The notes: generated by a model not told the origin, from the letters alone. A DNA stretch of 64,000 bases from Desulfobacterales bacterium (GCA_963662235.1 OY759308.1:1398109-1462108); one strand, 5' to 3'. Shown: positions 12,084 to 57,085, numbered from the stretch's first letter. Made by a program: numbers and translations.

Positions 12084-12458
12084 TTAATTGCTTACAATCT
12101 TAATTTTTCCCTCTTTATCTAAAGAGTAGGTGTTTTTTCCTTTGGGATGTTTGAATGTTATTGTGCTTTCAACATCTCCACTTTCTGCTTTGTAAATAAA
12201 AGAACCCTGTATAGTTGTAGAGACAGTTAAATCTGCAGGTAAGTTACTTGCGTTATATGTTATATCTTTCTCGCCCTCTGCACTCGAAATTGCCATAAGG
12301 TAGAAGTTTTTAGCATCTGCCATAGCCACAGCATCGTAACCTTTTTTTTTGTAGGAAATGTAGTTAGGTATGGCAACGAGAGATAGAATACCTATTATAG
12401 CAACAACAATCATAAGCTCTATTAATGTAAACCCTGAATTTTGTTTGCTTCTTATCAT
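12084..12458 (-). CDS. Type IV pilin-like protein (prepilin N-terminal methylation domain)
   Basis: MIRSKQNSG|FTLIELMIVVAIIGILSLVAIPNY with GGAG located 8 nt upstream. The track start at 12497 is a GTG inside the repeat terminus, so I trimmed it. Confidence 0.85.
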   Translation of the reverse strand: MIRSKQNSGFTLIELMIVVAIIGILSLVAIPNYISYKKKGYDAVAMADAKNFYLMAISSAEGEKDITYNASNLPADLTVSTTIQGSFIYKAESGDVESTITFKHPKGKNTYSLDKEGKIKIVSN

Positions 12459-38498: not shown

Positions 38499-38800
38499 TC
38501 AATTATAAAAGTCATTAAAAATTAATCAAAATTAATAGCAGGGTGAATTATAAAACCAATCTTTTTTGATAATTAAAAAAGTTTACATAATATATCTTAT
38601 CAGACGTTTTAAAAATATACATACAATATGTTGTGGTTTAGACTCATTGTAGAACACAAGATATTTTTGAAGAATATCTTTAATATCTTTTAAGTAAATT
38701 TTCTTATCATCAATTGGTTGTTTGATTTATGGGATATCTGTCTAAAAGAACCTTTTGTGTTGTTGTGCAGTTAACAATTGTTGGCTATACTTCAAACATA

Positions 38801-38838
38801 AAAAAAGGGAGACTTTTTGGAAAAGCCTCCCTTTTTTA
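38801..38838. terminator. Bidirectional rho-independent terminator
   Basis: AAAAAAA-GGGAGAC-tttttggaaaa-GCCTCCC-TTTTTT between convergent genes. A second small hairpin, aacgaatatttgttcgtt, follows. Confidence 0.6.
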
Positions 38839-39157
38839 GAAAAACGAATATTTGTTCGTTACTTTGTTATAAAACTTTTTTTACAATTTCCTTATTTTTT
38901 TTATTGATAATGTTTAGTGTTAAAGCTTTTTTTATTATTTAAAAGGAATCTTACAAAAGCTTTTTTCTAAAACAAATCTAAATTGGCTTATAGCAAACAT
39001 AGGCCTCTATACTTAATTGATAACAATATTAAAAAAGAAATTGAAACAAACTGTTGAAAAAACAACCCTTCGATATCCATTATTGAATAATAACTTTAAA
39101 AGTAACACTTTAAGTATTTTATTATTGTTTTTGTGAGCTTTAATGCTTTACTTTAAC

Positions 39158-39580
39158 CTAAATGTTGCTTTTGGTAACATTGGCATCTGGTTTAGGTGAA
39201 GCTGTTATTTTGTTAAGTTGGTTTGATTTTTCAATAATATCACCTTTTTCTACAACGCGAACTTCTGAATTTACTACCCCACCCTCTTCAATGCTTATTT
39301 GTCTACATATAACTTTACCAGAGCAAGAGCCTTCGGATAAAATTTTAAACAAATTATCAGCTTTAATAGAGCCTTCAAATTGTCCATTTATAAGTATAGT
39401 TTCAGTTTCTATGTCAGCAAAAACTTTACCTTCTTTAGCGATAGTAATTTTTTTAGCTTTGATATCTCCCTTAACATTGCCTCTTATTAAAAGATTAGAT
39501 TCTTTCCCTAAAATATTTCCTTCAATGCTGACATTTTCATTGATGATTGATAGATTTTCTTCCTGATTGTTTGTTGCCAT
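39158..39580 (-). CDS. Bactofilin (DUF583 polymer-forming cytoskeletal protein)
   Basis: Beta-helical repeat pattern IEGNILGKESNLLIRGNVKGDIKAKKITIAKEGKVFADIETETILINGQFEGSIKA. The ATG at 39580 has GAGG located 13 nt upstream. The track start at 39622 lies in a repeat hairpin. Confidence 0.85.
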   Translation of the reverse strand: MATNNQEENLSIINENVSIEGNILGKESNLLIRGNVKGDIKAKKITIAKEGKVFADIETETILINGQFEGSIKADNLFKILSEGSCSGKVICRQISIEEGGVVNSEVRVVEKGDIIEKSNQLNKITASPKPDANVTKSNI

Positions 39581-39600
39581 AATATAAAAAACCTCATTTA

Positions 39601-39629
39601 AGACTTTTACATATTTATGCAAATGTCTC
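39601..39629. repeat. Mini hairpin resembling the joined MITE termini
   Basis: agacttttacatat/ttatgcaaatgtct has arms related to gagacctttgcacat. Confidence 0.4.
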
Positions 39630-39630
39630 T

Positions 39631-40380
39631 TTATCTAATTTTAATTAATGTAGAAAAAAGATTTCTTTTATAATAATCTTTTCCCGTTAAAACCTTATTG
39701 CCTACTACATATTTATAAGAAATTTGTTTTTTACTTTTTTTAGGTAGAATAGAAAGAATAAAAACTTTTACTGCAATAATATTTTTTATACTTATGGGTT
39801 TAAAAAGAGACGAAGTGTTTGATGAGTTATACTCATTTGCTATATTTTCATCAATATTAATGATTTCTATATCAAGCATTCCATCATTATCAGAATCGTA
39901 TGCCCAAATAATTTTGTTGCTACTACCTTTTTCTATATAAGCATATGCAAAAGATATAGATTGAATATTTTCTGCAATAGGCATTAAGTTTCCTTTGCCT
40001 TTTTTTCTTCCTATTACTCCTAAATTTTCATCCGCTATTCCATCTTGATTGGCATCATATTTTTTAGCAAAACCATAGCCAACCATCTCATCAGACGATA
40101 TTTTTCCATCTTCATCTAAATCATAGGAAATTTCTAATGAGGAGTGGCAAGCTTTTGTTATACCAATGTTTTCTCTTTCAAGAGGATTACAATTTGCTCT
40201 TTTGATGTCTCGTTCTATTGTATGGAAAAAAATGCGTACACCACTGCGTTCTTTAATTTTTAAATTGATATTTTTTTCTACATTTCTTTGAACAAAAAAA
40301 AACGAATAACTTAAAGATATAATTATAAAACCAATACTTAAGCTAACTAAAACTTCTATTATTGTGTAACCTTTGCACAT
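39631..40380 (-). CDS. PilW-like minor (pseudo)pilin with three EF-hand-like Ca-binding loops
   Basis: Prepilin N-terminus MCKG|YTIIEVLVSLSIGFIII. Loops are DLDEDGKISSDE (canonical 12-residue EF loop), DANQDGIAD and DSDNDGMLD. Confidence 0.75.
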   Translation of the reverse strand: MCKGYTIIEVLVSLSIGFIIISLSYSFFFVQRNVEKNINLKIKERSGVRIFFHTIERDIKRANCNPLERENIGITKACHSSLEISYDLDEDGKISSDEMVGYGFAKKYDANQDGIADENLGVIGRKKGKGNLMPIAENIQSISFAYAYIEKGSSNKIIWAYDSDNDGMLDIEIINIDENIANEYNSSNTSSLFKPISIKNIIAVKVFILSILPKKSKKQISYKYVVGNKVLTGKDYYKRNLFSTLIKIR

Positions 40381-40410
40381 AATATTGTTTATGAAAAAAT
40401 AGTATTTTTA
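40368..40410 (+). repeat. Solo left end of the MITE family
   Basis: aacctttgcacataatattgtttatgaaaaaatagtattttt matches the consensus gagacctttgcacataatgttttttatgaaaaaatagtggttttt. It supplies the ATG-TGC-AAA-GG start of the PilW-like gene. Confidence 0.75.
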
Positions 40411-40413
40411 AAA

Positions 40414-40911
40414 TTATTCCCATATACCGGCAGTATTGTTCCATTTTCTTAAAACAATATTACCATTTATAGAGTTTGTGCCTACTGAATAGGTTGAGCC
40501 TATACGATTGCTTAAATAGACGTAACCTAAATTTTTTGCAGTTCCATAAGAGGTAAAAGTTGCGGTATTATTTGAATAACTTACATAATCGTCTGGGAAA
40601 TTTTTACTGTTTGTAACAGAAACAGTTGCTTTACCATATCCAAAGAAGACATAAAAATCTTTTAAATTTATCGTTTTATTTAGAATTTCGTACTGATTTT
40701 TTTTTACATTAAAAACAACAGAAATTGTTTTGTTATTTTTTATCGCTTCTGCTCTTGCTTTGTGAAGATTAAAAAACAGCTCTTTCGCTGCTGAACTTAA
40801 TTTGTAATTTAAAGAGATTGTTTTAAAGAAAGGGAAGGAGATGTGTAAAAATATAGAAAGTATAGATACTACAATTATGAGCTCAAAGATAGAGAACGCT
40901 TTTGTTATTAT
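40414..40911 (-). CDS. GspH/FimT-like pseudopilin ORF lacking any ATG, GTG or TTG
   Basis: Not in the ORF track. The frame is open for 180 codons from the TGA at 40956..40954 to the TAA at 40416..40414. It reads ...KKEKIITKA|FSIFELIIVVSILSIFL...YKLSSAAKELFFNLHKARAEAIKNNKTISVVF... The 5' limit shown assumes an ATA start (40911..40909). Confidence 0.6.
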   Translation of the reverse strand: MITKAFSIFELIIVVSILSIFLHISFPFFKTISLNYKLSSAAKELFFNLHKARAEAIKNNKTISVVFNVKKNQYEILNKTINLKDFYVFFGYGKATVSVTNSKNFPDDYVSYSNNTATFTSYGTAKNLGYVYLSNRIGSTYSVGTNSINGNIVLRKWNNTAGIWE

Positions 40912-43274
40912 TTTTTCTTTTTTGAATATTCGTAATCTCCATAAAGAGGTTTGTCATTTTTATAGGTTCCTTTATATAAGGTACCATCTGCCCAAAAAAA
41001 AGTACCCTTCCCCTCTTTTTTACCGTTTTTAAAATAACCTTCGTATCTATTTCTATTAGACCAAGTATATATTCCAAAACCATCAATTGCGTTTTGTGAA
41101 AAATCGCCATCATATTTATCGCCATTTTTAAAAAGCATTGTTCCTTTTCCATGACGTTTGAAATTTTTAAACGTACCTTGATACTCAATGCCGTTTGTAT
41201 ATTTCATTAAACCAAAACCTTCTAATATCCCATTTTTAAAAGAACCTTGATATTTATCTCCATTAGAAAAGATTAAAATAGCGTTACGATCTTCTTTTTT
41301 ATTATTTACGAAAATACCTTTATAATATTTGAAAATGCTATTTTCGTATTTACAAAAACCCTCTCCGTCTAAAAGTCCATTCTTAAAATAGCCCTTGCAA
41401 AAATAAGAACCTGATAGAGACATTGAACCTTGTCCCATAATCTTATCATTACTAAAGTTTCCTTTATAAAGTTTACCATTTTTGAATTTTAATTCTCCAT
41501 ATCCTTCTTTTTTACCTTTTTTAAAAGAACCTTCATAGACACTACCATTTTGTGTTTTGTAAACACCTTGTCCATCCATATATCCATTTTCCCAGTGTCC
41601 GCTATATGTTTCGCCTGTAGAAGTTGTTAAAAGACCTTCTCCATGCCTTTTGCCATTTCTAAAGTCCCCTTCATATTTTGCCCCATTGATATATAGATAG
41701 GTTCCTACACCATTTGGTAGGTCATTTTTCCAGTGACCATTATATTTAGAACCATTATTGTAAATTATTACACCTAAACCATCTCGCTTATCGTTTTTCC
41801 ACTTACCTTTATATAAACTGCCGTCAGGATAGAAATATGAACCTTCTCCCTCTTTTTTATTATTTTTATACTCTCCTGTATATTTACTACCATCTACATA
41901 AACATATGTTCCAGCACCTGTTAGTTTACCAGCTTCATATCCACCTTTATAATAGCTACCATCTGCAAAGAAAAACTCTCCTTTGCCATCGTGTAAGCCT
42001 TTTTTAAATGTACCTTTATATTTACTACCATCGGCATAATTATATACTCCAGCACCTGTTAGTTTCCCAGCCTTATATCCACCTTTATAATAGCTACCAT
42101 CTGCAAAGAAAAACTCTCCTTTACCATCTTGTACACCTTGTTTAAATGAGCCTTTATATTTACTACCATCAGGAAAATAAAAAGTTCCAAGTCCATCAAA
42201 TTTATCATCTTTGAATGTGCCTTCATATTTACACCCATTTCCAAGAATCAAGGTGCCATAACCATTTTTTTTATCATAAATATAGTTGCCTACATATTTA
42301 CTTCCATTTGACCATATATAAGTTCCTTGTCCAGATTTTTGACCGTTTTTATAGTTTCCTTCAAAAGAGTTACCATTGCCAAAATTCATCTTCCAAATTC
42401 CAGCTCTTTTATCGCTTACATAATCTCCTTCATAATGTTTATCACTTGAATCGCTTTTTAAAACCCAGAACCCCTCTTTTAAACCATTTTTGTATTTGCC
42501 TTTTTCAGTACTGTTGTCATAATTTTTTATAGTCCACTTACCTTCTCTTTTATCGTTTTTATAATGGCCTTTATGCACAGAGCTATTTTTAGGGTAAAAA
42601 ACTACAAATTCGCCATGCTTTTTACCATCTACATATTCACCCTTATAAGTTGTCTTTTGACTATCAATAAAAACACCAGGACCATTTCTAAAACCATTTT
42701 CAAATTGTCCTGTAAACTTTGAGCCATTTTTAAACGTTATTATTCCTTTACCATGTTTTAAATCGTTGCTCCATTCGCCTTCATATGTACTTTTATCTTG
42801 CTTAATATATTTTCCAAAACCCTCTCGTTTATTGTCTTTCCAGTCGCCACTATATTTGCTTCCATCACTCCAAGTATATGTTCCTTTCCCATTCCTTAAA
42901 TCGTTTTTCCATTCTCCGTCATATTTACTACCATCTGGCCAAGTGCATTCCCCTTTCCCATCTCTTAAATTGTATTTCCAATTACCAGAATATTTAAAAC
43001 CATCTTTTTTTGAATAGACTCCAAATCCTTCCTTTTTATTATATTTCCAATTGCCTTTATATTTGCTTCCATCTGGCCAAACACAAAGACCTTCGCCATG
43101 TTTGTCCCCAATTTTTAAATTACCTTTATATCTCCCTTTTCCATTAAAGGTATAAACACTATAGCCATTCTTGCAATCTCCAGTTATGCACCTGTCCATT
43201 AACTCTGGTTGCAAACAGGAATTTAAAAAAAATAAAGTGCTAAAAAGTAGTAATATAGAAAGTTTTTTTGTCAT
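40908..43274 (-). CDS. MORN-repeat lipoprotein (about 33 MORN units)
   Basis: Lipoprotein signal MTKKLSILLLFSTLFFLNSC, followed by continuous YxGxWxxxxxxGxG repeats. Start trimmed to the ATG at 43274. Confidence 0.85.
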   Translation of the reverse strand: MTKKLSILLLFSTLFFLNSCLQPELMDRCITGDCKNGYSVYTFNGKGRYKGNLKIGDKHGEGLCVWPDGSKYKGNWKYNKKEGFGVYSKKDGFKYSGNWKYNLRDGKGECTWPDGSKYDGEWKNDLRNGKGTYTWSDGSKYSGDWKDNKREGFGKYIKQDKSTYEGEWSNDLKHGKGIITFKNGSKFTGQFENGFRNGPGVFIDSQKTTYKGEYVDGKKHGEFVVFYPKNSSVHKGHYKNDKREGKWTIKNYDNSTEKGKYKNGLKEGFWVLKSDSSDKHYEGDYVSDKRAGIWKMNFGNGNSFEGNYKNGQKSGQGTYIWSNGSKYVGNYIYDKKNGYGTLILGNGCKYEGTFKDDKFDGLGTFYFPDGSKYKGSFKQGVQDGKGEFFFADGSYYKGGYKAGKLTGAGVYNYADGSKYKGTFKKGLHDGKGEFFFADGSYYKGGYEAGKLTGAGTYVYVDGSKYTGEYKNNKKEGEGSYFYPDGSLYKGKWKNDKRDGLGVIIYNNGSKYNGHWKNDLPNGVGTYLYINGAKYEGDFRNGKRHGEGLLTTSTGETYSGHWENGYMDGQGVYKTQNGSVYEGSFKKGKKEGYGELKFKNGKLYKGNFSNDKIMGQGSMSLSGSYFCKGYFKNGLLDGEGFCKYENSIFKYYKGIFVNNKKEDRNAILIFSNGDKYQGSFKNGILEGFGLMKYTNGIEYQGTFKNFKRHGKGTMLFKNGDKYDGDFSQNAIDGFGIYTWSNRNRYEGYFKNGKKEGKGTFFWADGTLYKGTYKNDKPLYGDYEYSKKKK
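40917..40923 (-). promoter_or_regulatory. Candidate -1 frameshift heptamer A_AAA_AAG (dnaX type)
   Basis: In the MORN frame the sequence is TCA AAA AAG AAA AAA TAA. A -1 slip enters the pseudopilin frame (AAA AAA GAA AAA ATA ATA ACA AAA GCG TTC). Confidence 0.25.
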
Positions 43275-43308
43275 AATTTTTTCACTAAAAATTAAGTGTT
43301 TTAATGTT

Positions 43309-45114
43309 TTAACTGTTTTGTTTTCTCTTATTATAAATAAAAAAACCAATAAAAAACAGTATAATTGGAATAAATGTCATATTTACTATTGTTAATATTT
43401 TACCTAATAAATCTATATCTTGTCTCAATTTTTTTCTGATTTCACGTCTTTGACGTTTGAAATTTATCTCTTTTTCTTTAAATTCTAAAATCTTTTTTTC
43501 TTGTTCTGGTGATAATATTGTTGTTTTGCCGTCTTTCTCTTTTCTTGTCGCTTCAAGTTTATTTAGCTCTTCATTAAGTCTCGATATTTTTGTTGTAAGT
43601 TCTCTATCCAAAACCAACCATTTTTCTTGAGCTTTTTTTTCAAGTTCGACTACTTTATCAAAAGGTCTTAAATATTTTCCTCGCATTCTGATTTTAATTA
43701 AATCTGTATCACCATCTAAGAATTTTAAACAGTTTATAAGAAAAGTAATATTTTGATTAACTTGTCTTACAATTCTATTACCTAAAAAATCAAATACTCT
43801 TATGGCATAAAGGTTATTTAAAAAATCTATATCTCCCATAATAAAAACAGAATTATTTTTTTTAGATTCTTTAATGTGTTTTTTCATATATAAAGAGTCT
43901 TTAGGTTTTTGCTCAAAAGCGGACTTGAATTGCCCTGTTACAATTCCTGCAAGTGAATAAGTTTTATTTTCCTTATTAAAGTTTTCAATCTCTGTAAAAG
44001 GCATAAAGTTCATCTTTTTGCTGTCGATAAAACCTGCTTTATTTTTTGTGTTTATTAAAGATATATAGTCGTTTTTAGCTACGTTCTCAAAATAACTGCT
44101 CTCTATTAATAGCATATCTTGAAAGTTTTTAGAGATGAAGTTGTTTTGGTTAAAATTTTTTTCATCTAATGATAACCAAAAAGGGTATCTAACAGTAAAT
44201 CCATCTCTTGTAGAAACACTTGCTGCAGAATTCATATCAGCTACTACTTTATCATTGTGATATTTAATGCCTATCGTTTTAAAAACAGATTCAGGGTTAG
44301 ATGATGTGGCTATCGCAAGCTGTCTCGCCATATTTTTTTCTATAGATGTTCTTGCCGAAGAATCGACAAGAATTGCAGTCTTTCCGCCGTTTAAAATGTA
44401 TTGATCTATAGCATATTCTGTCTCTTCAATAAGTTCAGGAGGATGTAAAAGCATAAGTAACGAAATGTTTTGTGGAATCTCTTCTATATCTTCTGCAAGA
44501 AACTCGATATCAAATAGTTTTTCTATTTCGCTTATAAAAAGCCATTCATTTTGAACTTCACGAATATTTTTTAATGGAAGAGATGTTATTATGCCAATTT
44601 TACTTTTTTCCTTAGACCTTTGGACTTGAGTAAGCATATTGGTAATTTCAAATTCAAGAGAGTTCTCATCTCTAATATCAAAAAAAGGTATTGAAAAAGT
44701 CTTGTCCCCACAAATAGCAACTGCACCAATATAAAAAGGGGTAGAGACCCCTGCTGAAATTTGCTTTATTCCGTATCTTGTAGCATTAAGCTCTTCTTCT
44801 GTATCTGGAAGAGGATCGTGTATTTCAAAACTGATAAGATTATTGTATTCAAGATACTCTTTTAAAAACTCTTCTACCCTCTTCCCATAATTTTTTATAA
44901 CTGTAGATAAAGTATCATTAGAAGCTGAAAAGTAATATTTTATAGTTATTTTCTTATCTATTTTTTTTATAATGTTTTTGGATTCATTAGATAAAGTAAA
45001 GAGGTTATCTTTTGTAAGGTCTATTTTAAAAAAAATCTTACCTGCAATAAAATTAACTATAAATAAAAAGAGAAATAGAAATAAAACTTTTAGTGGCAAC
45101 TTAATTGATTTCAT
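43309..45114 (-). CDS. GldG-like ABC-transporter auxiliary protein (ABC_transp_aux)
   Basis: N- and C-terminal TM anchors, a large periplasmic domain, a coiled-coil segment, and position after an ABC-2 permease. Confidence 0.7.
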   Translation of the reverse strand: MKSIKLPLKVLFLFLFLFIVNFIAGKIFFKIDLTKDNLFTLSNESKNIIKKIDKKITIKYYFSASNDTLSTVIKNYGKRVEEFLKEYLEYNNLISFEIHDPLPDTEEELNATRYGIKQISAGVSTPFYIGAVAICGDKTFSIPFFDIRDENSLEFEITNMLTQVQRSKEKSKIGIITSLPLKNIREVQNEWLFISEIEKLFDIEFLAEDIEEIPQNISLLMLLHPPELIEETEYAIDQYILNGGKTAILVDSSARTSIEKNMARQLAIATSSNPESVFKTIGIKYHNDKVVADMNSAASVSTRDGFTVRYPFWLSLDEKNFNQNNFISKNFQDMLLIESSYFENVAKNDYISLINTKNKAGFIDSKKMNFMPFTEIENFNKENKTYSLAGIVTGQFKSAFEQKPKDSLYMKKHIKESKKNNSVFIMGDIDFLNNLYAIRVFDFLGNRIVRQVNQNITFLINCLKFLDGDTDLIKIRMRGKYLRPFDKVVELEKKAQEKWLVLDRELTTKISRLNEELNKLEATRKEKDGKTTILSPEQEKKILEFKEKEINFKRQRREIRKKLRQDIDLLGKILTIVNMTFIPIILFFIGFFIYNKRKQNS

Positions 45115-45156
45115 AATTTTTAAAATTTATTTTTATAAGAACTTTTCTCAAAATTC

Positions 45157-45894
45157 TCATTTTTCTTTATTTAGTGTTAATATATTTAAACTTAAAAATA
45201 GAACTATTATAGAAAAAAAGTATATTAAGTCTCTTGAATCTATTATACCTTTTATTCCTCTTTGAAAATGCGTTACAAAAGATAAGTTTGCGATAAACTC
45301 ATAAAAATTAATGGGTAAAAAAGTAAAGTAGTGTTTAAATGTATCAAACCCTAAAAAAACGAAAATAAAACATATTAAAATAGAAAAGACAAAGCTTACA
45401 ATTTGATTTTGTGTAACAGAGCTTGCAAACAAACTTATAGACAAATATGCCCCTGCCATAATCCAAGACATAAGATATCCGCTAAATATAGGACCAAAAT
45501 CTGGATTGCCAAGATAATAGAGTGTAAGAACAACAGGGAAGGTTAAAAAAATAGCTATTAAGACAAAGCACCAAAGAGCAAAAAATTTACCAAGTGTAAT
45601 CTCATAAAGCGAAACAGGAAGAGTTCTTAATATTTCGTATGTGCCACTTCTTTTTTCTTCTGCCCAAACTTTCATACCTAAAGCTGGAAGTAAAAAAAGA
45701 TATAACCAAGGATGAAAATAAAAAAACAAATCTAAACTCGATTGACCAGTTGAATAGAATTTACCTATCACAAAAGTAAAAATGGCTTGAAGGATTAAAA
45801 AAATAATTAGGAAAATTAAAGAGGAGAGTGAAAAAATATAACCTTTAAATTCTTTCTTAAAAATCACAAATACTGAAGTTAAAAAACTATTCAT
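45157..45894 (-). CDS. ABC-2 type transporter permease (GldF-like)
   Basis: Six predicted TM helices in the typical ABC-2 layout. No ATPase gene is adjacent. Confidence 0.75.
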   Translation of the reverse strand: MNSFLTSVFVIFKKEFKGYIFSLSSLIFLIIFLILQAIFTFVIGKFYSTGQSSLDLFFYFHPWLYLFLLPALGMKVWAEEKRSGTYEILRTLPVSLYEITLGKFFALWCFVLIAIFLTFPVVLTLYYLGNPDFGPIFSGYLMSWIMAGAYLSISLFASSVTQNQIVSFVFSILICFIFVFLGFDTFKHYFTFLPINFYEFIANLSFVTHFQRGIKGIIDSRDLIYFFSIIVLFLSLNILTLNKEK

Positions 45895-54965: not shown

Positions 54966-55601
54966 TTAATTGATAAATAGTGTTTTGGAATTAAAAATTT
55001 TCAAAACCTCTTTATCGTACGATATAAAAACTATAATTTTATCATCTCCTATAAAATTCTTAATATAAGATATCTCTTCATAACTAAGAAAATTTTCAGG
55101 GCAATCAAGCAAAACTATTTCAAATTGTTTAATTAATTCTCTTATTAATATTACAATTTTATTTTTTCTTAAATTAATATCTTTAGGAAATTTATCTAAC
55201 TTTTCAGAAATATTAAAAAAATTGCAAAGAGTTTTACTTTTTTCATCAAGTTCTTGTACTATTATATTTTTTTCATATTCTGTCATTAAGAAGATGTTCT
55301 CTTTTAACGTTTTTCTACTTACAAGATTGGAGTCTATACCGACATAAGCTATTTTTTTTTTGTATTTCAAAAAATATCTATAGTCTGGAAAATTAAGCTC
55401 TTCATTAAAAAATATATATTTACCATTTAACGGATATTTTACTGTGGCAAGCCCTTTTAAAAAAAGAGAAGATTTGTCGTGAGAATCCGATTCTATTTGA
55501 ACAGTTTCTCCCTTTTTAATAGAAAAATTTATAAATTCAATTTTTTGTCCTTTTAAATCATCTTCAAAGGAGCAGTTTATTAGTTCTATCTCATCAATCA
55601 C
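54966..55601 (-). CDS. ABC-ATPase-like protein with degenerate catalytic motifs
   Basis: It aligns to the ABC NBD layout, but Walker A reads ESDSHDKSS, no LSGGQ is present (INLRKNK), Walker B reads VLLDCP (catalytic Glu replaced by Cys), and the H-loop reads SYD. Confidence 0.6.
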   Translation of the reverse strand: MIDEIELINCSFEDDLKGQKIEFINFSIKKGETVQIESDSHDKSSLFLKGLATVKYPLNGKYIFFNEELNFPDYRYFLKYKKKIAYVGIDSNLVSRKTLKENIFLMTEYEKNIIVQELDEKSKTLCNFFNISEKLDKFPKDINLRKNKIVILIRELIKQFEIVLLDCPENFLSYEEISYIKNFIGDDKIIVFISYDKEVLKIFNSKTLFIN

Positions 55602-55603
55602 AG

Positions 55604-57085
55604 TTAAAATTCCAACTTTTTTGCAATTTTTAAAGTTACATCATTTATATATTTTTTATATTCAACCTCTTTAAAACTGTTTAAATCGGTTGCTGACTTT
55701 ACATTCTTAATGTTTATAATTTCTGGCTTATTTATCATTTCCTTTTTAGAAGTTATATCAAAATCTTGAAGCTTTTCTTTAAAATATAAGTTCTGAAAAT
55801 TAGCAAATTTTAAGGTATGTGCAGTAGAATCGACTATTGCCGTTTCATCTTTTTTTACAAAACCTTTTTTTATAGCTTGAAAAAGACCCGCTAAGCTTTC
55901 TCCTCCTTGTGTGCAAGCAATATGCCCATTTCTATTTGCAAGTAAATTAAAGTCCATAATTTCTTGCTCTTTTACTTCAACAAAAAATACATTTTCTCTA
56001 TTAGATGTTTTATTATAGAGGTCTACAAGATGAATAACTCTTGGCATAGAAACAGGGTTTCCTATCATTGCTGCTTGTGCCACACTTGGTTTTACAGTAA
56101 CAGGTTTAAACACTCTTTTTCTATCTATTTTTTCTAAGTAGTATTTAAAAACAGGGTTAGCATGCTCTGACTGAACCCCTACTATTTTGGGCAAACTCTC
56201 TATTACTCCCGCTTCATAAAATTTCAAAAAACCGCTTAATATAGCAGTTATATTTCCAGCATTTCCAATTGGAACAACAATCACTTTCTTTTCCATATCG
56301 TACTCAAAATCTTGAGCTATTTCATAAGAGAAAGTTTCTTGGCCAAGAATTCTCCAAGCATTTTTTGAGTTTAAAAGAGCAATATTATAATTTTCTGATA
56401 AGCTTTCCACAACTTTCATACAATCATCAAAAACACCTACTATTTCAAACACCTTTGCCCCACTTCCAAGAACTTGTGAAAGCTGTTCTGTTGTAACTTT
56501 TTTATGAGGTAAGAGGACAGCAGATTTAATATTTTCAAGATACGAAGAGTAAAGAGCGGCAGCCGCTGAAGTGTCACCTGTTGATGCACAAATTGTAATA
56601 ATATCCTTCTTTTTTTCTTTAACTAAAAAATTTATATAACTTAAAGCTGATGCCATACCTCTATCTTTAAAAGAAGCACTGGGATTTTGCCCATCATTTT
56701 TAAAATAAAAAGGAATTCCTATTTTACTTTGTAAAAAATCGTTTGCAGCCACTATTGGAGTTCCGCCTTCACCAAGGTAGACTATTGAATTAAGAGGAAT
56801 AAAAGGAGCTATAAACTCATAATAACGAAAAATTCCTTTTAATGCAGGGACATTAACCATTTTACGATAATCAAAAATTTTTCTCCAAAGCTTTCCGTCT
56901 GCTGTTTTTAAATATGTTTTTGCTCTGTCGTATAAAAGTAAAACTCCACTGCAGGAAGGACACGTATAAAAAAGATTTTCTGCATCAAACTCTTTTTGAC
57001 ACGAAAGACATCTATAAAAAAGTTTACCTTTTTGTTGAGGGATTATGTAATCTTTTATAAAGTCAGGAAAATCATTGAGTTGCAT
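55604..57085 (-). CDS. thrC: Threonine synthase (long form with N-terminal zinc ribbon)
   Basis: CLSCQKEF...CPSCSG zinc ribbon and PLP lysine motif NPSASFKDRG. Confidence 0.85.
   Translation of the reverse strand: MQLNDFPDFIKDYIIPQQKGKLFYRCLSCQKEFDAENLFYTCPSCSGVLLLYDRAKTYLKTADGKLWRKIFDYRKMVNVPALKGIFRYYEFIAPFIPLNSIVYLGEGGTPIVAANDFLQSKIGIPFYFKNDGQNPSASFKDRGMASALSYINFLVKEKKKDIITICASTGDTSAAAALYSSYLENIKSAVLLPHKKVTTEQLSQVLGSGAKVFEIVGVFDDCMKVVESLSENYNIALLNSKNAWRILGQETFSYEIAQDFEYDMEKKVIVVPIGNAGNITAILSGFLKFYEAGVIESLPKIVGVQSEHANPVFKYYLEKIDRKRVFKPVTVKPSVAQAAMIGNPVSMPRVIHLVDLYNKTSNRENVFFVEVKEQEIMDFNLLANRNGHIACTQGGESLAGLFQAIKKGFVKKDETAIVDSTAHTLKFANFQNLYFKEKLQDFDITSKKEMINKPEIINIKNVKSATDLNSFKEVEYKKYINDVTLKIAKKLEF

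What the first reader, a model, noticed from the sequence alone, without database searches (positions are those of the whole stretch)
40414..40956. Pseudopilin ORF with no ATG/GTG/TTG, reachable from the MORN gene by a dnaX-type -1 frameshift
Seen in sequence:
- A 180-codon open frame on the minus strand encodes a clear GspH/FimT-like pseudopilin (KA|FSIFELIIVVSILSIF...AAKELFFNLHKARAEAIKNNKTISVVF).
- The frame contains no ATG, GTG or TTG codon anywhere, which is why the ORF track misses it.
- Its 5' end overlaps the last codons of the MORN gene.
- The MORN gene ends TAT TCA AAA AAG AAA AAA TAA, and the pseudopilin is in its -1 frame.

Established knowledge: A_AAA_AAG is the E. coli dnaX -1 slippery heptamer.

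There are three possible explanations:
- A programmed -1 frameshift gives a MORN-pseudopilin fusion.
- Initiation occurs at ATA (40911..40909 or 40908..40906), giving a conventional 4-5 residue leader (MITKA|F or MTKA|F) with Ala rather than Gly at -1.
- The gene recently lost its start, or the A-run was miscalled in assembly.
Basis: partly seen in the sequence, partly recalled or inferred. Interest (0 to 1): 0.6.

Follow-up and report, generated by a model that had tools for sequence, protein, structure and literature searches.

The report
Minor pilin gene lacking normal start
This is a real, conserved FimU/GspH-type minor pilin gene with no ATG, GTG or TTG start; it is most likely translated weakly from an ATA codon, and not by a programmed frameshift from the upstream MORN gene.

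Summary
On the minus strand, 40953..40417 is a 179-codon open frame with no ATG/GTG/TTG. It lies in the -1 frame of the MORN gene, whose last codons contain an in-frame A_AAA_AAG.

The frame encodes a FimU/GspH-class minor pilin: 1007 relatives, AlphaFold pLDDT 95, and best PDB matches FimU and EpsH.

A second genome, 97.3% identical, has the same junction base for base. Its frame is also intact and startless. Nonsynonymous change is about half the neutral expectation, and indels fall only in flanking spacers. Miscalled A-runs are therefore excluded, and a drifting pseudogene is unlikely.

A programmed -1 frameshift is not supported:
- There is no downstream stem-loop.
- The heptamer occurs 27 times in 18,258 codons here.
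- Two orthologues place the pilin in frame 0 (own ATG, leader MNKKA|F) and frame +1.
- A fusion to the exported MORN protein would give the pilin the wrong membrane topology.

The best explanation is near-cognate initiation at one of three in-frame ATA codons. ATA 40929 has GGAG 7 nt upstream. ATA 40911 and 40908 overlap the MORN stop as ATAA and TAATA. None of this has been shown directly. It is a modest curiosity and an annotation gap.

The parts
40414..40953 (-). Open frame of the FimU/GspH-like minor pilin: 179 sense codons plus stop TAA 40416..40414. It contains no ATG, GTG or TTG.
   Evidence: family assignment
40417..40896 (-). Predicted mature pilin. It starts FSIFELIIVV (Phe+1, Glu+5) and ends ...AGIWE.
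   Evidence: Motif read. AlphaFold gives a long N-terminal helix (residues 8-58 of the 165-aa query) plus a beta-sheet, pLDDT 95.1. Best PDB matches are FimU 4IPU and EpsH 2QV8.
40927..40929 (-). Candidate near-cognate start ATA number 1. It would give an 11-residue leader, MFKKEKIITKA.
   Evidence: In frame. GGAG lies 7 nt upstream; the anti-SD duplex of -6.4 kcal/mol is stronger than for 89% of window genes.
40937..40940 (-). GGAG, Shine-Dalgarno-like. It lies 7 nt before ATA 40929 and 13 nt before the heptamer. It is encoded by the conserved MORN residues Tyr-Gly-Asp.
   Evidence: also present in L001 and L002
40909..40911 (-). Candidate near-cognate start ATA number 2. It overlaps the MORN stop as ATAA, the geometry of an ATGA -4 overlap. 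The leader would be MITKA, the same length as MNKKA in L001.
40906..40908 (-). Candidate near-cognate start ATA number 3. It overlaps the MORN stop as TAATA, the geometry of a TAATG -1 overlap. The leader would be MTKA.
40917..40923 (-). A_AAA_AAG heptamer in the MORN zero frame, three codons before the MORN stop.
   Evidence: No stable downstream structure.
40908..43274 (-). MORN-repeat protein gene. The likely start is ATG 43274, giving MTKKLSILLLFSTLFFLNSC, a signal peptide with a lipobox-like motif. Stop TAA 40910..40908 is followed by a second TAA.
   Evidence: (24 MORN repeats, E 1e-129)
39631..40380 (-). PilW-like minor pilin, MCKG|YTIIEV, with EF-hand-like loops. It lies 33 nt downstream of the FimU-like frame.
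39158..39580 (-). Bactofilin gene, the last gene of the co-directional string.
38801..38837 (-). Strong terminator-like hairpin (17-bp stem followed by a T run) after the bactofilin gene.
43309..45894 (-). Upstream co-directional genes: an ABC-2 permease (45157..45894) and a GldG-like ABC auxiliary protein (43309..45114). Their synteny with the MORN, FimU-like and PilW-like genes is kept in L001 and L010.

Best explanation
The frame is a functional FimU/GspH-class minor type IV pilin gene that lost, or never had, a canonical start codon in this lineage. It sits in a co-directional gene string: ABC-2 permease, GldG-like, MORN lipoprotein, FimU-like, PilW-like, bactofilin.

I infer that it is translated as a separate small prepilin by low-efficiency initiation with initiator tRNA at a near-cognate ATA codon. 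There are two candidate routes:
- ATA 40929, using the GGAG 7 nt upstream as a Shine-Dalgarno site.
- ATA 40911 or 40908, which overlap the MORN stop codon (ATAA and TAATA) and would be reached by ribosomes terminating on the MORN gene, in an A-rich, unstructured context typical of start sites in this genome.

The product would carry a short basic leader of 11, 5 or 4 residues ending in Ala. A prepilin peptidase would cleave before Phe+1. A weak start would fit a minor pilin needed in small amounts.

Shown here: the frame, its family and fold, its conservation and constraint in a second genome, and the absence of dnaX-like frameshift stimulators. Inferred: the use of ATA, which ATA is used, the coupling to MORN translation, and the cleavage after Ala.
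For: 1. It is a real pilin.
- 1007 relatives at E<=1e-3.
- 26 of 30 aligned members hit PF12019 GspH and 28 of 30 hit N_methyl.
- AlphaFold pLDDT is 95.1.
- The best PDB matches are FimU, EpsH and XcpH.

2. It is not an error. The Logan assembly L006 is 100% identical. The independent genome L010, at 97.3% identity with 151 mismatches, has an identical junction and again no canonical start.

3. It is under constraint.
- Between the two genomes there are 8 synonymous, 9 nonsynonymous and 0 nonsense changes; NG86 omega is 0.30.
- With the neighbours' synonymous spectrum as the neutral rate, 7.8 synonymous changes are expected (8 seen) and 19.6 nonsynonymous plus nonsense (9 seen), P=0.006.
- All 5 indels between the genomes lie in non-coding spacers, none in the frame. 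Non-coding DNA downstream diverges 6.1% against 3.3% in the frame.

4. A stand-alone pilin is the ancestral design. L001 has a MORN stop, a 6-nt spacer, then an ATG and the leader MNKKA|F. That leader has the same length as one starting at ATA 40911.

5. Start context.
- Most of the 55 starts in the window are A-rich with little SD, like caaaaaagaaaaaATA.
- GGAG lies 7 nt before ATA 40929, with a duplex of -6.4 kcal/mol.
- The strongest SD duplexes in the window belong to TTG-start genes; TTG starts average -4.8 kcal/mol against -1.6 for ATG.
- The region is unstructured: MFE -4.9 kcal/mol, z 0.12.

6. Literature.
- AUA, AUU, AUC and CUG initiate at about 1-2% (range 0.02-3%) of AUG in E. coli (10.1101/063800).
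- An AUA mRNA with an optimised initiation region performs like the AUG mRNA in vitro (PMC5499595).
- infC uses AUU next to the upstream stop, and A/U-rich enhancers raise such starts (PMC3592434).
Against: - There is no direct evidence of translation or of the N-terminus.
- AUA is a poor start in E. coli.
- All other genes examined in the window use ATG, GTG or TTG, so this organism shows no general use of ATA.
- GGAG is forced by the MORN Tyr-Gly-Asp codons. By my rough estimate, an in-frame ATH codon 5-9 nt after it has a chance probability of 0.15-0.2.
- ATA overlapping the stop is automatic for a -1 frame after AAA TAA.
- L002 has an in-frame ATG and a longer leader, so leader architecture is not conserved.
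- The selection test rests on 17 substitutions. The synonymous/nonsynonymous ratio test alone gives P=0.09 once transition bias is allowed for.
- Ala at -1 is unusual for prepilin peptidase substrates, and cleavage is untested.
Confidence: 0.6

Rival explanations
1. Programmed -1 ribosomal frameshifting. Ribosomes translating the MORN gene slip on A_AAA_AAG (40923..40917), or on the last AAA before the TAA stop, and read on into the pilin frame. The product would be a MORN-pilin fusion, ...YEYSKKEKIITKAFS....
For: - The heptamer is in the correct zero frame, three codons before the stop.
- GGAG lies 13 nt upstream, within the 10-14 nt range that I recall (not re-checked here) for the dnaX SD-like stimulator.
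- The -1 frame stays open for 167 codons.
- The junction is identical in a second genome.
- A_AAA_AAG is the most shift-prone heptamer in E. coli (PMC5009743).
- Some unprogrammed slippage at a few percent is plausible.
Against: - There is no downstream stem-loop: MFE -4.9 kcal/mol, z 0.12, and 100 of 200 shuffles fold as well.
- The heptamer occurs 27 times in 18,258 codons. Another copy 4 codons before a stop also opens into the next gene, which has its own GTG.
- The arrangement is not conserved. In L001 the pilin is in frame 0 behind a stop, a 6-nt spacer and its own ATG, and there is no heptamer. In L002 it is in frame +1.
- The MORN protein has an N-terminal signal peptide with a lipobox-like motif. 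By inference, a C-terminal pilin helix would act as a stop-transfer anchor with its N-terminus outside, leaving the pilin domain in the cytoplasm and the cleavage site on the wrong face for prepilin peptidase.
- GGAG is explained by conserved Tyr-Gly-Asp codons.
Confidence: 0.06
2. The gene is no longer translated. The start codon was lost before the two sequenced strains diverged, either by an ATG-to-ATA point change or by an indel in the A-runs. The frame is then an intact but silent young pseudogene.
For: - The frame has no canonical start, and no gene caller reports it.
- Omega of 0.30 is higher than in the neighbours, which range from 0 to 0.13.
- The ratio test alone is not significant, P=0.09.
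- The minor-pilin set here is reduced to FimU-like plus PilW-like, whereas distant relatives have a five-gene set.
Against: - The startless state is shared by two genomes at dS of about 0.07-0.10.
- Over that span the frame took 9 nonsynonymous or nonsense changes where 19.6 are expected under neutrality, P=0.006.
- It took no indel, although all 5 indels in 6.5 kb lie in adjacent spacers.
- Synonymous change in the frame matches the neutral expectation.
- Elevated omega is usual for pilins.
Confidence: 0.2
3. Translation starts at ATG 40942..40940, inside the MORN gene in the third frame, as in L002. It reaches the pilin frame by a +1 shift, by loss of one A during transcription, or by slipped-strand phase variation in the A6/A6/A4 runs.
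For: - In L002 the homologous tATGgag is in frame with the pilin and gives the leader MENINIQKKQKKNSPA|F.
- In the window that ATG frame needs only a 1-nt change in an A-run to join the pilin frame.
- A-run lengths differ among orthologues: A7 and A10 in L002.
Against: - The two strains have identical A-run lengths, both out of frame. That argues against an active phase switch and would leave both strains OFF despite the constraint on the frame.
- A6 is short for polymerase slippage (my own knowledge).
- ATG 40942 has no SD and a C/T-rich context, weaker than 80% of window starts.
- The ATG is incidental to the Tyr-Gly codons of the MORN gene and is absent in L001, which has TAC GGA.
Confidence: 0.06
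4. Sequencing or assembly error in the homopolymer runs hides a normal start.
For: The junction is rich in A-runs, and the only evidence for this rival is the anomaly itself.
Against: An independent assembler gives an identical sequence over 6,336 nt. A separate genome with 151 differences elsewhere has a junction identical base for base.
Confidence: 0.01

Closest known systems
Pseudomonas aeruginosa FimU (PDB 4IPU/4IPV) and the type II secretion pseudopilin GspH (EpsH 2QV8, XcpH)
   Same: - The predicted fold is the same: a long N-terminal helix plus a beta-sheet, with top Foldseek hits at probability 1.00.
- There is a PF12019 match, and 26 of 30 relatives match the same family.
- The hydrophobic N-terminus has Phe+1 and Glu+5.
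- The gene lies next to a PilW-like minor pilin gene, as in fimU-pilVWXY1E-type operons (my knowledge for the operon; for distant relatives).
   Different: - Position -1 is Ala, not Gly. This is conserved in the small clade, whereas Gly is seen in 36 more distant relatives.
- There is no canonical start codon.
- The operon partners are a MORN lipoprotein, a GldG-like ABC system and a bactofilin, with no PilV, PilX or PilY1.
- Sequence identity to FimU is only about 20%.
Natural near-cognate start genes: E. coli infC and pcnB (AUU)
   Same: - Translation would depend on an AUH codon with no canonical alternative.
- infC's AUU lies 3 nt after the upstream gene's stop and is helped by SD and A/U-rich elements (PMC3592434). 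The ATA codons here likewise abut or overlap the MORN stop, or follow a GGAG.
   Different: - The codon here is AUA, not AUU.
- No autoregulatory logic through IF3 is known or expected.
- Use of the codon is inferred, not shown.
IS911 (IS3 family) orfA/orfB junction
   Same: The linear arrangement is the same: an SD-like element, a near-cognate start in the -1 frame just upstream of an A_AAA_AAG heptamer, then the end of the upstream ORF. IS911 both frameshifts and initiates OrfB at AUU (Polard et al. 1991, title cited in PMC6211511). In IS911 one stimulator also serves a second role (PMC5009743).
   Different: - IS911 has an elaborate downstream three-way-junction stimulator (PMC5009743), and none is present here.
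- The IS911 fusion is the functional transposase, whereas a fusion here is topologically implausible.
- The arrangement is not conserved in orthologues.
E. coli dnaX -1 frameshift
   Same: The heptamer A_AAA_AAG is identical, and an upstream GGAG lies at a compatible distance (13 nt).
   Different: - There is no downstream stem-loop.
- The shift would extend the protein by 167 codons rather than truncate it.
- It is not conserved.
- The heptamer is a frequent by-product of 10% AAA codon usage.

Membership tests
Type IV pilin-like proteins (class III signal peptide, prepilin peptidase substrates) | Short basic leader ending in Gly at -1 | tested here: not met
   Position -1 is Ala (KA|F). This is conserved in the window, L010, L001 (KA|F) and L002 (PA|F). 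Distant relatives have G|F. A basic leader of 4-11 residues is available from any of the three ATA codons. Tolerance of Ala at -1 rests on my own knowledge and was not tested.
Type IV pilin-like proteins (class III signal peptide, prepilin peptidase substrates) | Phe (or another hydrophobic residue) at +1, Glu at +5, and about 20 hydrophobic residues forming the N-terminal helix | tested here: met
   The sequence is FSIFELIIVVSILSIFLHISF. The predicted helix spans residues 8-58.
Type IV pilin-like proteins (class III signal peptide, prepilin peptidase substrates) | Match to the N-terminal methylation motif models (PF07963, TIGR02532) | tested here: inconclusive
   PF07963 scores 14.9 bits against a cut-off of 21.2. 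TIGR02532 scores 14.0 against 16.3. 28 of 30 aligned relatives match PF07963.
Type IV pilin-like proteins (class III signal peptide, prepilin peptidase substrates) | Cleavage and N-methylation by a PilD-type peptidase | not testable with these tools
   No peptidase gene was identified in the window. A canonical major pilin, MIRSKQNSG|FTLIEL at 12084..12458, implies the machinery exists.
GspH/FimU/FimT minor (pseudo)pilins (PF12019) | Sequence match to the family model | tested here: inconclusive
   PF12019 gives E 7e-4 and 20.5 bits against a cut-off of 21, covering model positions 1-98 of 108. 26 of 30 relatives match, best E 2e-10.
GspH/FimU/FimT minor (pseudo)pilins (PF12019) | Fold of the globular domain | tested here: met
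   The AlphaFold model has pLDDT 95.1 and pTM 0.85. The top 11 Foldseek PDB hits are all FimU, EpsH or XcpH: E 3.7e-4 to 0.16, probability 1.00 for the top eight and 0.69-0.96 for the rest, TM-score normalised to the target 0.44-0.64.
dnaX-type programmed -1 ribosomal frameshift | X_XXY_YYZ slippery heptamer in the zero frame | tested here: met
   A_AAA_AAG at 40923..40917 in the MORN frame. It is one of 27 such sites in 18,258 codons.
dnaX-type programmed -1 ribosomal frameshift | Upstream SD-like stimulator about 10-14 nt from the heptamer | tested here: inconclusive
   GGAG 40940..40937 lies 13 nt upstream. It is encoded by the conserved MORN Tyr-Gly-Asp and is also present where no frameshift is possible, in L001 and L002.
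dnaX-type programmed -1 ribosomal frameshift | Downstream stimulatory stem-loop or pseudoknot | tested here: not met
   The 96 nt from the heptamer onward give MFE -4.9 kcal/mol; shuffles average -5.2, z 0.12.
dnaX-type programmed -1 ribosomal frameshift | Conservation of the shift site and frame relation among orthologues | tested here: not met
   They are identical only in the 97%-identical strain. In L001 the pilin is in frame 0 with its own ATG and there is no heptamer. In L002 it is in frame +1.
dnaX-type programmed -1 ribosomal frameshift | A single tRNA-Lys (UUU) decoding both AAA and AAG | not testable with these tools
   The only tRNA in the window is tRNA-Gln.
Near-cognate (AUH) initiated bacterial genes | In-frame AUA, AUU or AUC upstream of the first essential residue, with no canonical alternative | tested here: met
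   ATA is present at 40929, 40911 and 40908. There is no ATG, GTG or TTG anywhere in the frame.
Near-cognate (AUH) initiated bacterial genes | Favourable initiation region (SD and/or an A/U-rich unstructured leader) | tested here: met
   GGAG lies 7 nt before ATA 40929, with a duplex of -6.4 kcal/mol. The context before ATA 40911 is A-rich, like typical starts in this genome. The region is unstructured.
Near-cognate (AUH) initiated bacterial genes | Experimental N-terminus or initiation footprint | not testable with these tools
   No expression data are available.

The most novel reading that the evidence does not exclude
The junction works as an IS911-like dual device in a cellular operon. 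The same GGAG both drives initiation at a -1-frame ATA and stimulates slippage on A_AAA_AAG. The cell would then make a free minor pilin and also a functional MORN-pilin fusion, for example a pilus-associated or membrane-tethered MORN protein.
Probability: 0.05. Interest if true: 0.7.

Novelty: new member of a known kind. Interest (0 to 1): 0.33.

Why it matters
- Annotation: standard gene finders accept only ATG, GTG and TTG. This conserved minor pilin is therefore missing from every gene call I could find: not called at this position in three assemblies, and no exact-sequence match for the ATA/ATC/ATT-initiated variants tried. A pilus operon would be read as incomplete.
- Biology: if the ATA start is confirmed, this would be a naturally maintained chromosomal gene that depends entirely on a near-cognate AUA start. 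Few such cases are documented.
- Caution: in genomes where AAA makes up 10% of codons, an in-frame A_AAA_AAG occurs about once per 680 codons. A dnaX-like heptamer next to an open -1 frame is not evidence of programmed frameshifting.

Tried and rejected
- Genome-contig scans. Two scans found no orthologue and only one unrelated Bacteroidetes locus. The organism's taxonomy stays unknown and no further junctions came from GTDB species representatives.
- Metagenome-contig scan. It gave only distant relatives at 27-41% identity (L003-L005).
- Protein searches with the pilin, the PilW-like protein and the MORN C-terminus. They gave only two orthologous loci (L001, L002), two distant operons (L008, L009) and paralogous MORN proteins.
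- Exact-sequence look-ups of six possible ATA/ATC/ATT-initiated products. None is in the collection, so no annotator has called this gene.
- Look-up by the invariant bactofilin sequence. It returned only the two genomes already known.
- Rfam and tRNA scans of the window. They found nothing near the locus and no tRNA-Lys.
- Literature searches for Ala at -1 in prepilins and for non-canonical starts in coupled genes. Neither gave a direct statement, so those points are marked as my own knowledge.
- Protein alignment placed ATA 40911 opposite the ATG of L001. The DNA alignment of this low-complexity junction is ambiguous, so I do not claim a specific ATG-to-ATA substitution.
- A dN/dS comparison with L001 or L002 was rejected. 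At about 55% amino-acid identity, synonymous sites are saturated.


Full report
**Observation**

Reading the minus strand, the frame is closed upstream by TGA 40956..40954. It is open for 179 codons (40953..40417) and ends at TAA 40416..40414. It contains no ATG, GTG or TTG.

The MORN-repeat gene (24 MORN repeats, E 1e-129) ends TAT TCA AAA AAG AAA AAA TAA, with the stop at 40910..40908 followed by a second TAA. A_AAA_AAG sits at 40923..40917 in the MORN zero frame, and the open frame is its -1 frame.

Three ATA codons lie in frame upstream of the pilin motif, at 40929, 40911 and 40908.

From the window's own codon usage, a 179-codon stretch without a canonical start codon has P of about 0.0025. 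This is the only gene-like frame of 90 codons or more in the window without a canonical start.

**What the frame encodes**

- The Pfam GspH match is just under threshold (20.5 against 21 bits), and there are weak N_methyl, ComGD and XpsH matches.
- An exhaustive HMMER scan of 1.84 billion cluster representatives finds 1007 relatives at E<=1e-3 and 149 at E<=1e-10.
- In an alignment of 30 relatives, 26 match PF12019 and 28 match PF07963.
- AlphaFold2 on that alignment gives pLDDT 95.1 and pTM 0.85, with a helix over residues 8-58 followed by a beta-sheet.
- The top eleven Foldseek PDB matches are all FimU (4IPU, 4IPV), EpsH (2QV8, 4DQ9) or XcpH.

The mature protein would begin FSIFEL, with Phe+1 and Glu+5. 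The next gene, 39631..40380, is a PilW-like minor pilin (MCKG|YTIIEV). A canonical major pilin (MIRSKQNSG|FTLIEL) lies at 12084..12458. The frame is therefore a FimU/GspH-class minor pilin in an organism that has type IV pilins.

**Is the sequence right, and is the gene alive?**

A Logan assembly of run SRR34447573 (L006) is 100% identical over 6,336 nt, including all A-runs. It may come from the same reads as the window's genome, so it excludes only an assembler artefact.

A second genome is decisive. ENA ERZ21862600 contig_2 (1.6 Mb; L010) is 97.3% identical over 6.5 kb, with 151 mismatches. Its junction, TATTCAAAAAAGAAAAAATAATAACAAAAGCG, is identical, and its pilin frame is intact and again lacks ATG, GTG and TTG. 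The startless state therefore predates the split of the two strains.

Evidence for constraint since that split:
- The frame took 8 synonymous and 9 nonsynonymous changes, with no nonsense change and no indel. NG86 omega is 0.30, against 0-0.13 in the four neighbouring genes.
- Taking the neighbours' synonymous substitution spectrum as the neutral rate, 7.8 synonymous changes are expected (8 observed) and 19.6 nonsynonymous plus nonsense (9 observed), Poisson P=0.006.
- The synonymous/nonsynonymous ratio alone gives P=0.09 once the strong transition bias is included.
- All five indels between the genomes lie in non-coding spacers. Non-coding DNA downstream of the bactofilin gene differs by 6.1%, against 3.3% in the frame.

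I read this as moderate but consistent evidence that the frame is translated and under purifying selection, relaxed as is usual for pilins.

**Comparative anatomy of the junction**

Only two other orthologous loci exist in the collections searched.

- L001 keeps the synteny GldG-like, MORN, pilin, PilW-like. There the MORN gene stops, six bases follow, and the pilin starts with ATG and the leader MNKKA|FSFIEL. It is in the same frame as the MORN gene, and there is no heptamer.
- In L002 the pilin is in the +1 frame of the MORN gene. An ATG formed by the MORN codons TAT GGA is in frame, giving MENINIQKKQKKNSPA|F. An ATT nine bases after the same GGAG would give an 11-residue leader.

The pilin thus sits in frame 0, +1 and -1 relative to the MORN gene in three lineages. 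Ala at -1 is shared by all four loci. By contrast, 36 more distant relatives, and the GspH-like genes of two distant operons, have Gly.

**Frameshift hypothesis**

The heptamer is genuine and correctly phased, and GGAG lies 13 nt upstream. Against a programmed event:

1. The 96 nt from the heptamer onward fold no better than shuffles (-4.9 kcal/mol, z 0.12).
2. In-frame A_AAA_AAG occurs 27 times in 18,258 codons of this window, because AAA is 10% of codons. Another copy four codons before the stop of 55604..57085 also opens into the next gene, which has its own GTG.
3. The frame relation and the heptamer are not conserved in L001 or L002.
4. GGAG is dictated by the conserved MORN residues Tyr-Gly-Asp and is present in loci where no -1 shift could reach the pilin.
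5. The MORN protein begins MTKKLSILLLFSTLFFLNSC, a signal peptide with a lipobox-like motif.

From point 5 and established knowledge of Sec export and prepilin processing, I infer a topology problem. A pilin helix at the C-terminus of an exported protein would insert with its N-terminus outside. The pilin domain would stay in the cytoplasm, and the cleavage site would be on the wrong face for the peptidase.

Unprogrammed slippage of a few percent may well occur, but its product is unlikely to be the functional pilin.

**Best explanation**

The gene is translated on its own from a near-cognate ATA.

- ATA 40929..40927 has GGAG 7 nt upstream. Its anti-SD duplex of -6.4 kcal/mol is stronger than for 89% of the 55 window genes. 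In this window the two strongest SD duplexes belong to TTG-start genes, so a weak start codon paired with a strong SD has local precedent. The leader would be MFKKEKIITKA.
- ATA 40911..40909 and ATA 40908..40906 overlap the MORN stop as ATAA and TAATA. These are the geometries of the common ATGA and TAATG overlaps used in translational coupling (PMC6728339, PMC3592434). They sit behind an A-rich stretch that resembles most start contexts in this genome. The leaders would be MITKA, the same length as MNKKA in L001, or MTKA.

The literature supports feasibility:
- AUA, AUU, AUC and CUG initiate at about 1-2% of AUG in vivo in E. coli, within a range of 0.02-3% (10.1101/063800).
- An AUA mRNA with an optimised initiation region behaves like the AUG mRNA in vitro (PMC5499595).
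- infC's AUU start sits 3 nt after the upstream stop and is boosted by A/U-rich sequence (PMC3592434).

Which ATA is used, whether MORN translation is required, and whether Ala at -1 is cleaved are all inferences.

**Rivals**

- A silent young pseudogene remains possible, at about 0.2, because the selection test rests on 17 substitutions.
- Initiation at ATG 40942 in the third frame, followed by a +1 shift, transcript slippage or phase variation, is unlikely. Both strains carry the same out-of-frame A6/A6/A4 runs, and that ATG has no SD and a poor context.
- Sequencing error is excluded for practical purposes.

**Comparison with known systems**

The protein is a new member of the FimU/GspH family, with a clade-specific Ala at -1.

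The expression problem resembles infC and pcnB, which use near-cognate starts. In linear layout it also resembles the IS911 orfA/orfB junction, where an SD, an AUU start in the -1 frame and A_AAA_AAG coexist (Polard et al. 1991, cited in PMC6211511; PMC5009743). However, it lacks IS911's downstream structure, and a fusion here has no sensible function. It shares only the heptamer and an upstream GGAG with dnaX.

**Verdict**

The headline mechanism is not supported. The finding is a modest curiosity and an annotation gap, and I score its interest at 0.33.

Noticed in passing
window 39631..40380 (-): The PilW-like minor pilin carries three EF-hand-like calcium-binding loops: DLDEDGKISSDE, DANQDGIADE and DSDNDGMLD. 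Pfam EF-hand_1 gives E 1e-4, below its cut-off. The loops are also present in the L001 orthologue. Calcium sites are known in PilY1 (my knowledge) but are unusual in a PilW-like protein.
   Followed up: partly
window 40897..40899 (-); L001 3129..3131; L002 413..415: Ala replaces the near-universal Gly at position -1 of the prepilin cleavage site. This holds in all four orthologous loci of this small clade. The neighbouring PilW-like pilin and the major pilin of the same genome keep Gly.
   Followed up: partly
window 55604..57085 (-) and 54966..55601 (-): A second in-frame A_AAA_AAG lies four codons before a stop. Its -1 frame runs 216 codons into the next gene, which has its own GTG start. This shows that such geometry arises by chance in this genome.
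   Followed up: partly
window 39158..45894 (-); L001; L010: The co-directional string ABC-2 permease, GldG-like, MORN lipoprotein, FimU-like pilin, PilW-like pilin, (bactofilin) is conserved. It appears in a 97% strain and, in part, in a roughly 57%-identical metagenomic relative. This is an unexplained association of MORN and ABC genes with minor pilins.
   Followed up: partly
L010 6535..10792 versus window 38591..38880: Downstream of the bactofilin gene the second genome carries about 2.6 kb absent from the window, with genes of 130, 68 and 456 aa. A short homologous patch follows, then a phage-type integrase and an HTH_17 gene. This is probably an integrated mobile element.
   Followed up: no
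window 12084..12458 (-): A canonical type IV major pilin gene, MIRSKQNSG|FTLIELMIVVAIIGIL. The listed ORF starts at an upstream GTG, but the ATG at 12458 gives a normal 9-residue leader.
   Followed up: partly
L002 386..406: The orthologous junction in L002 contains A7 and A10 runs. Homopolymer lengths at this junction change between lineages and reset the pilin's frame relative to the MORN gene.
   Followed up: partly
window 38801..38837 (-): A very strong terminator-like hairpin (17-bp stem followed by a T run) lies in the 660-nt gene-free stretch after the bactofilin gene. It probably marks the end of the operon.
   Followed up: no
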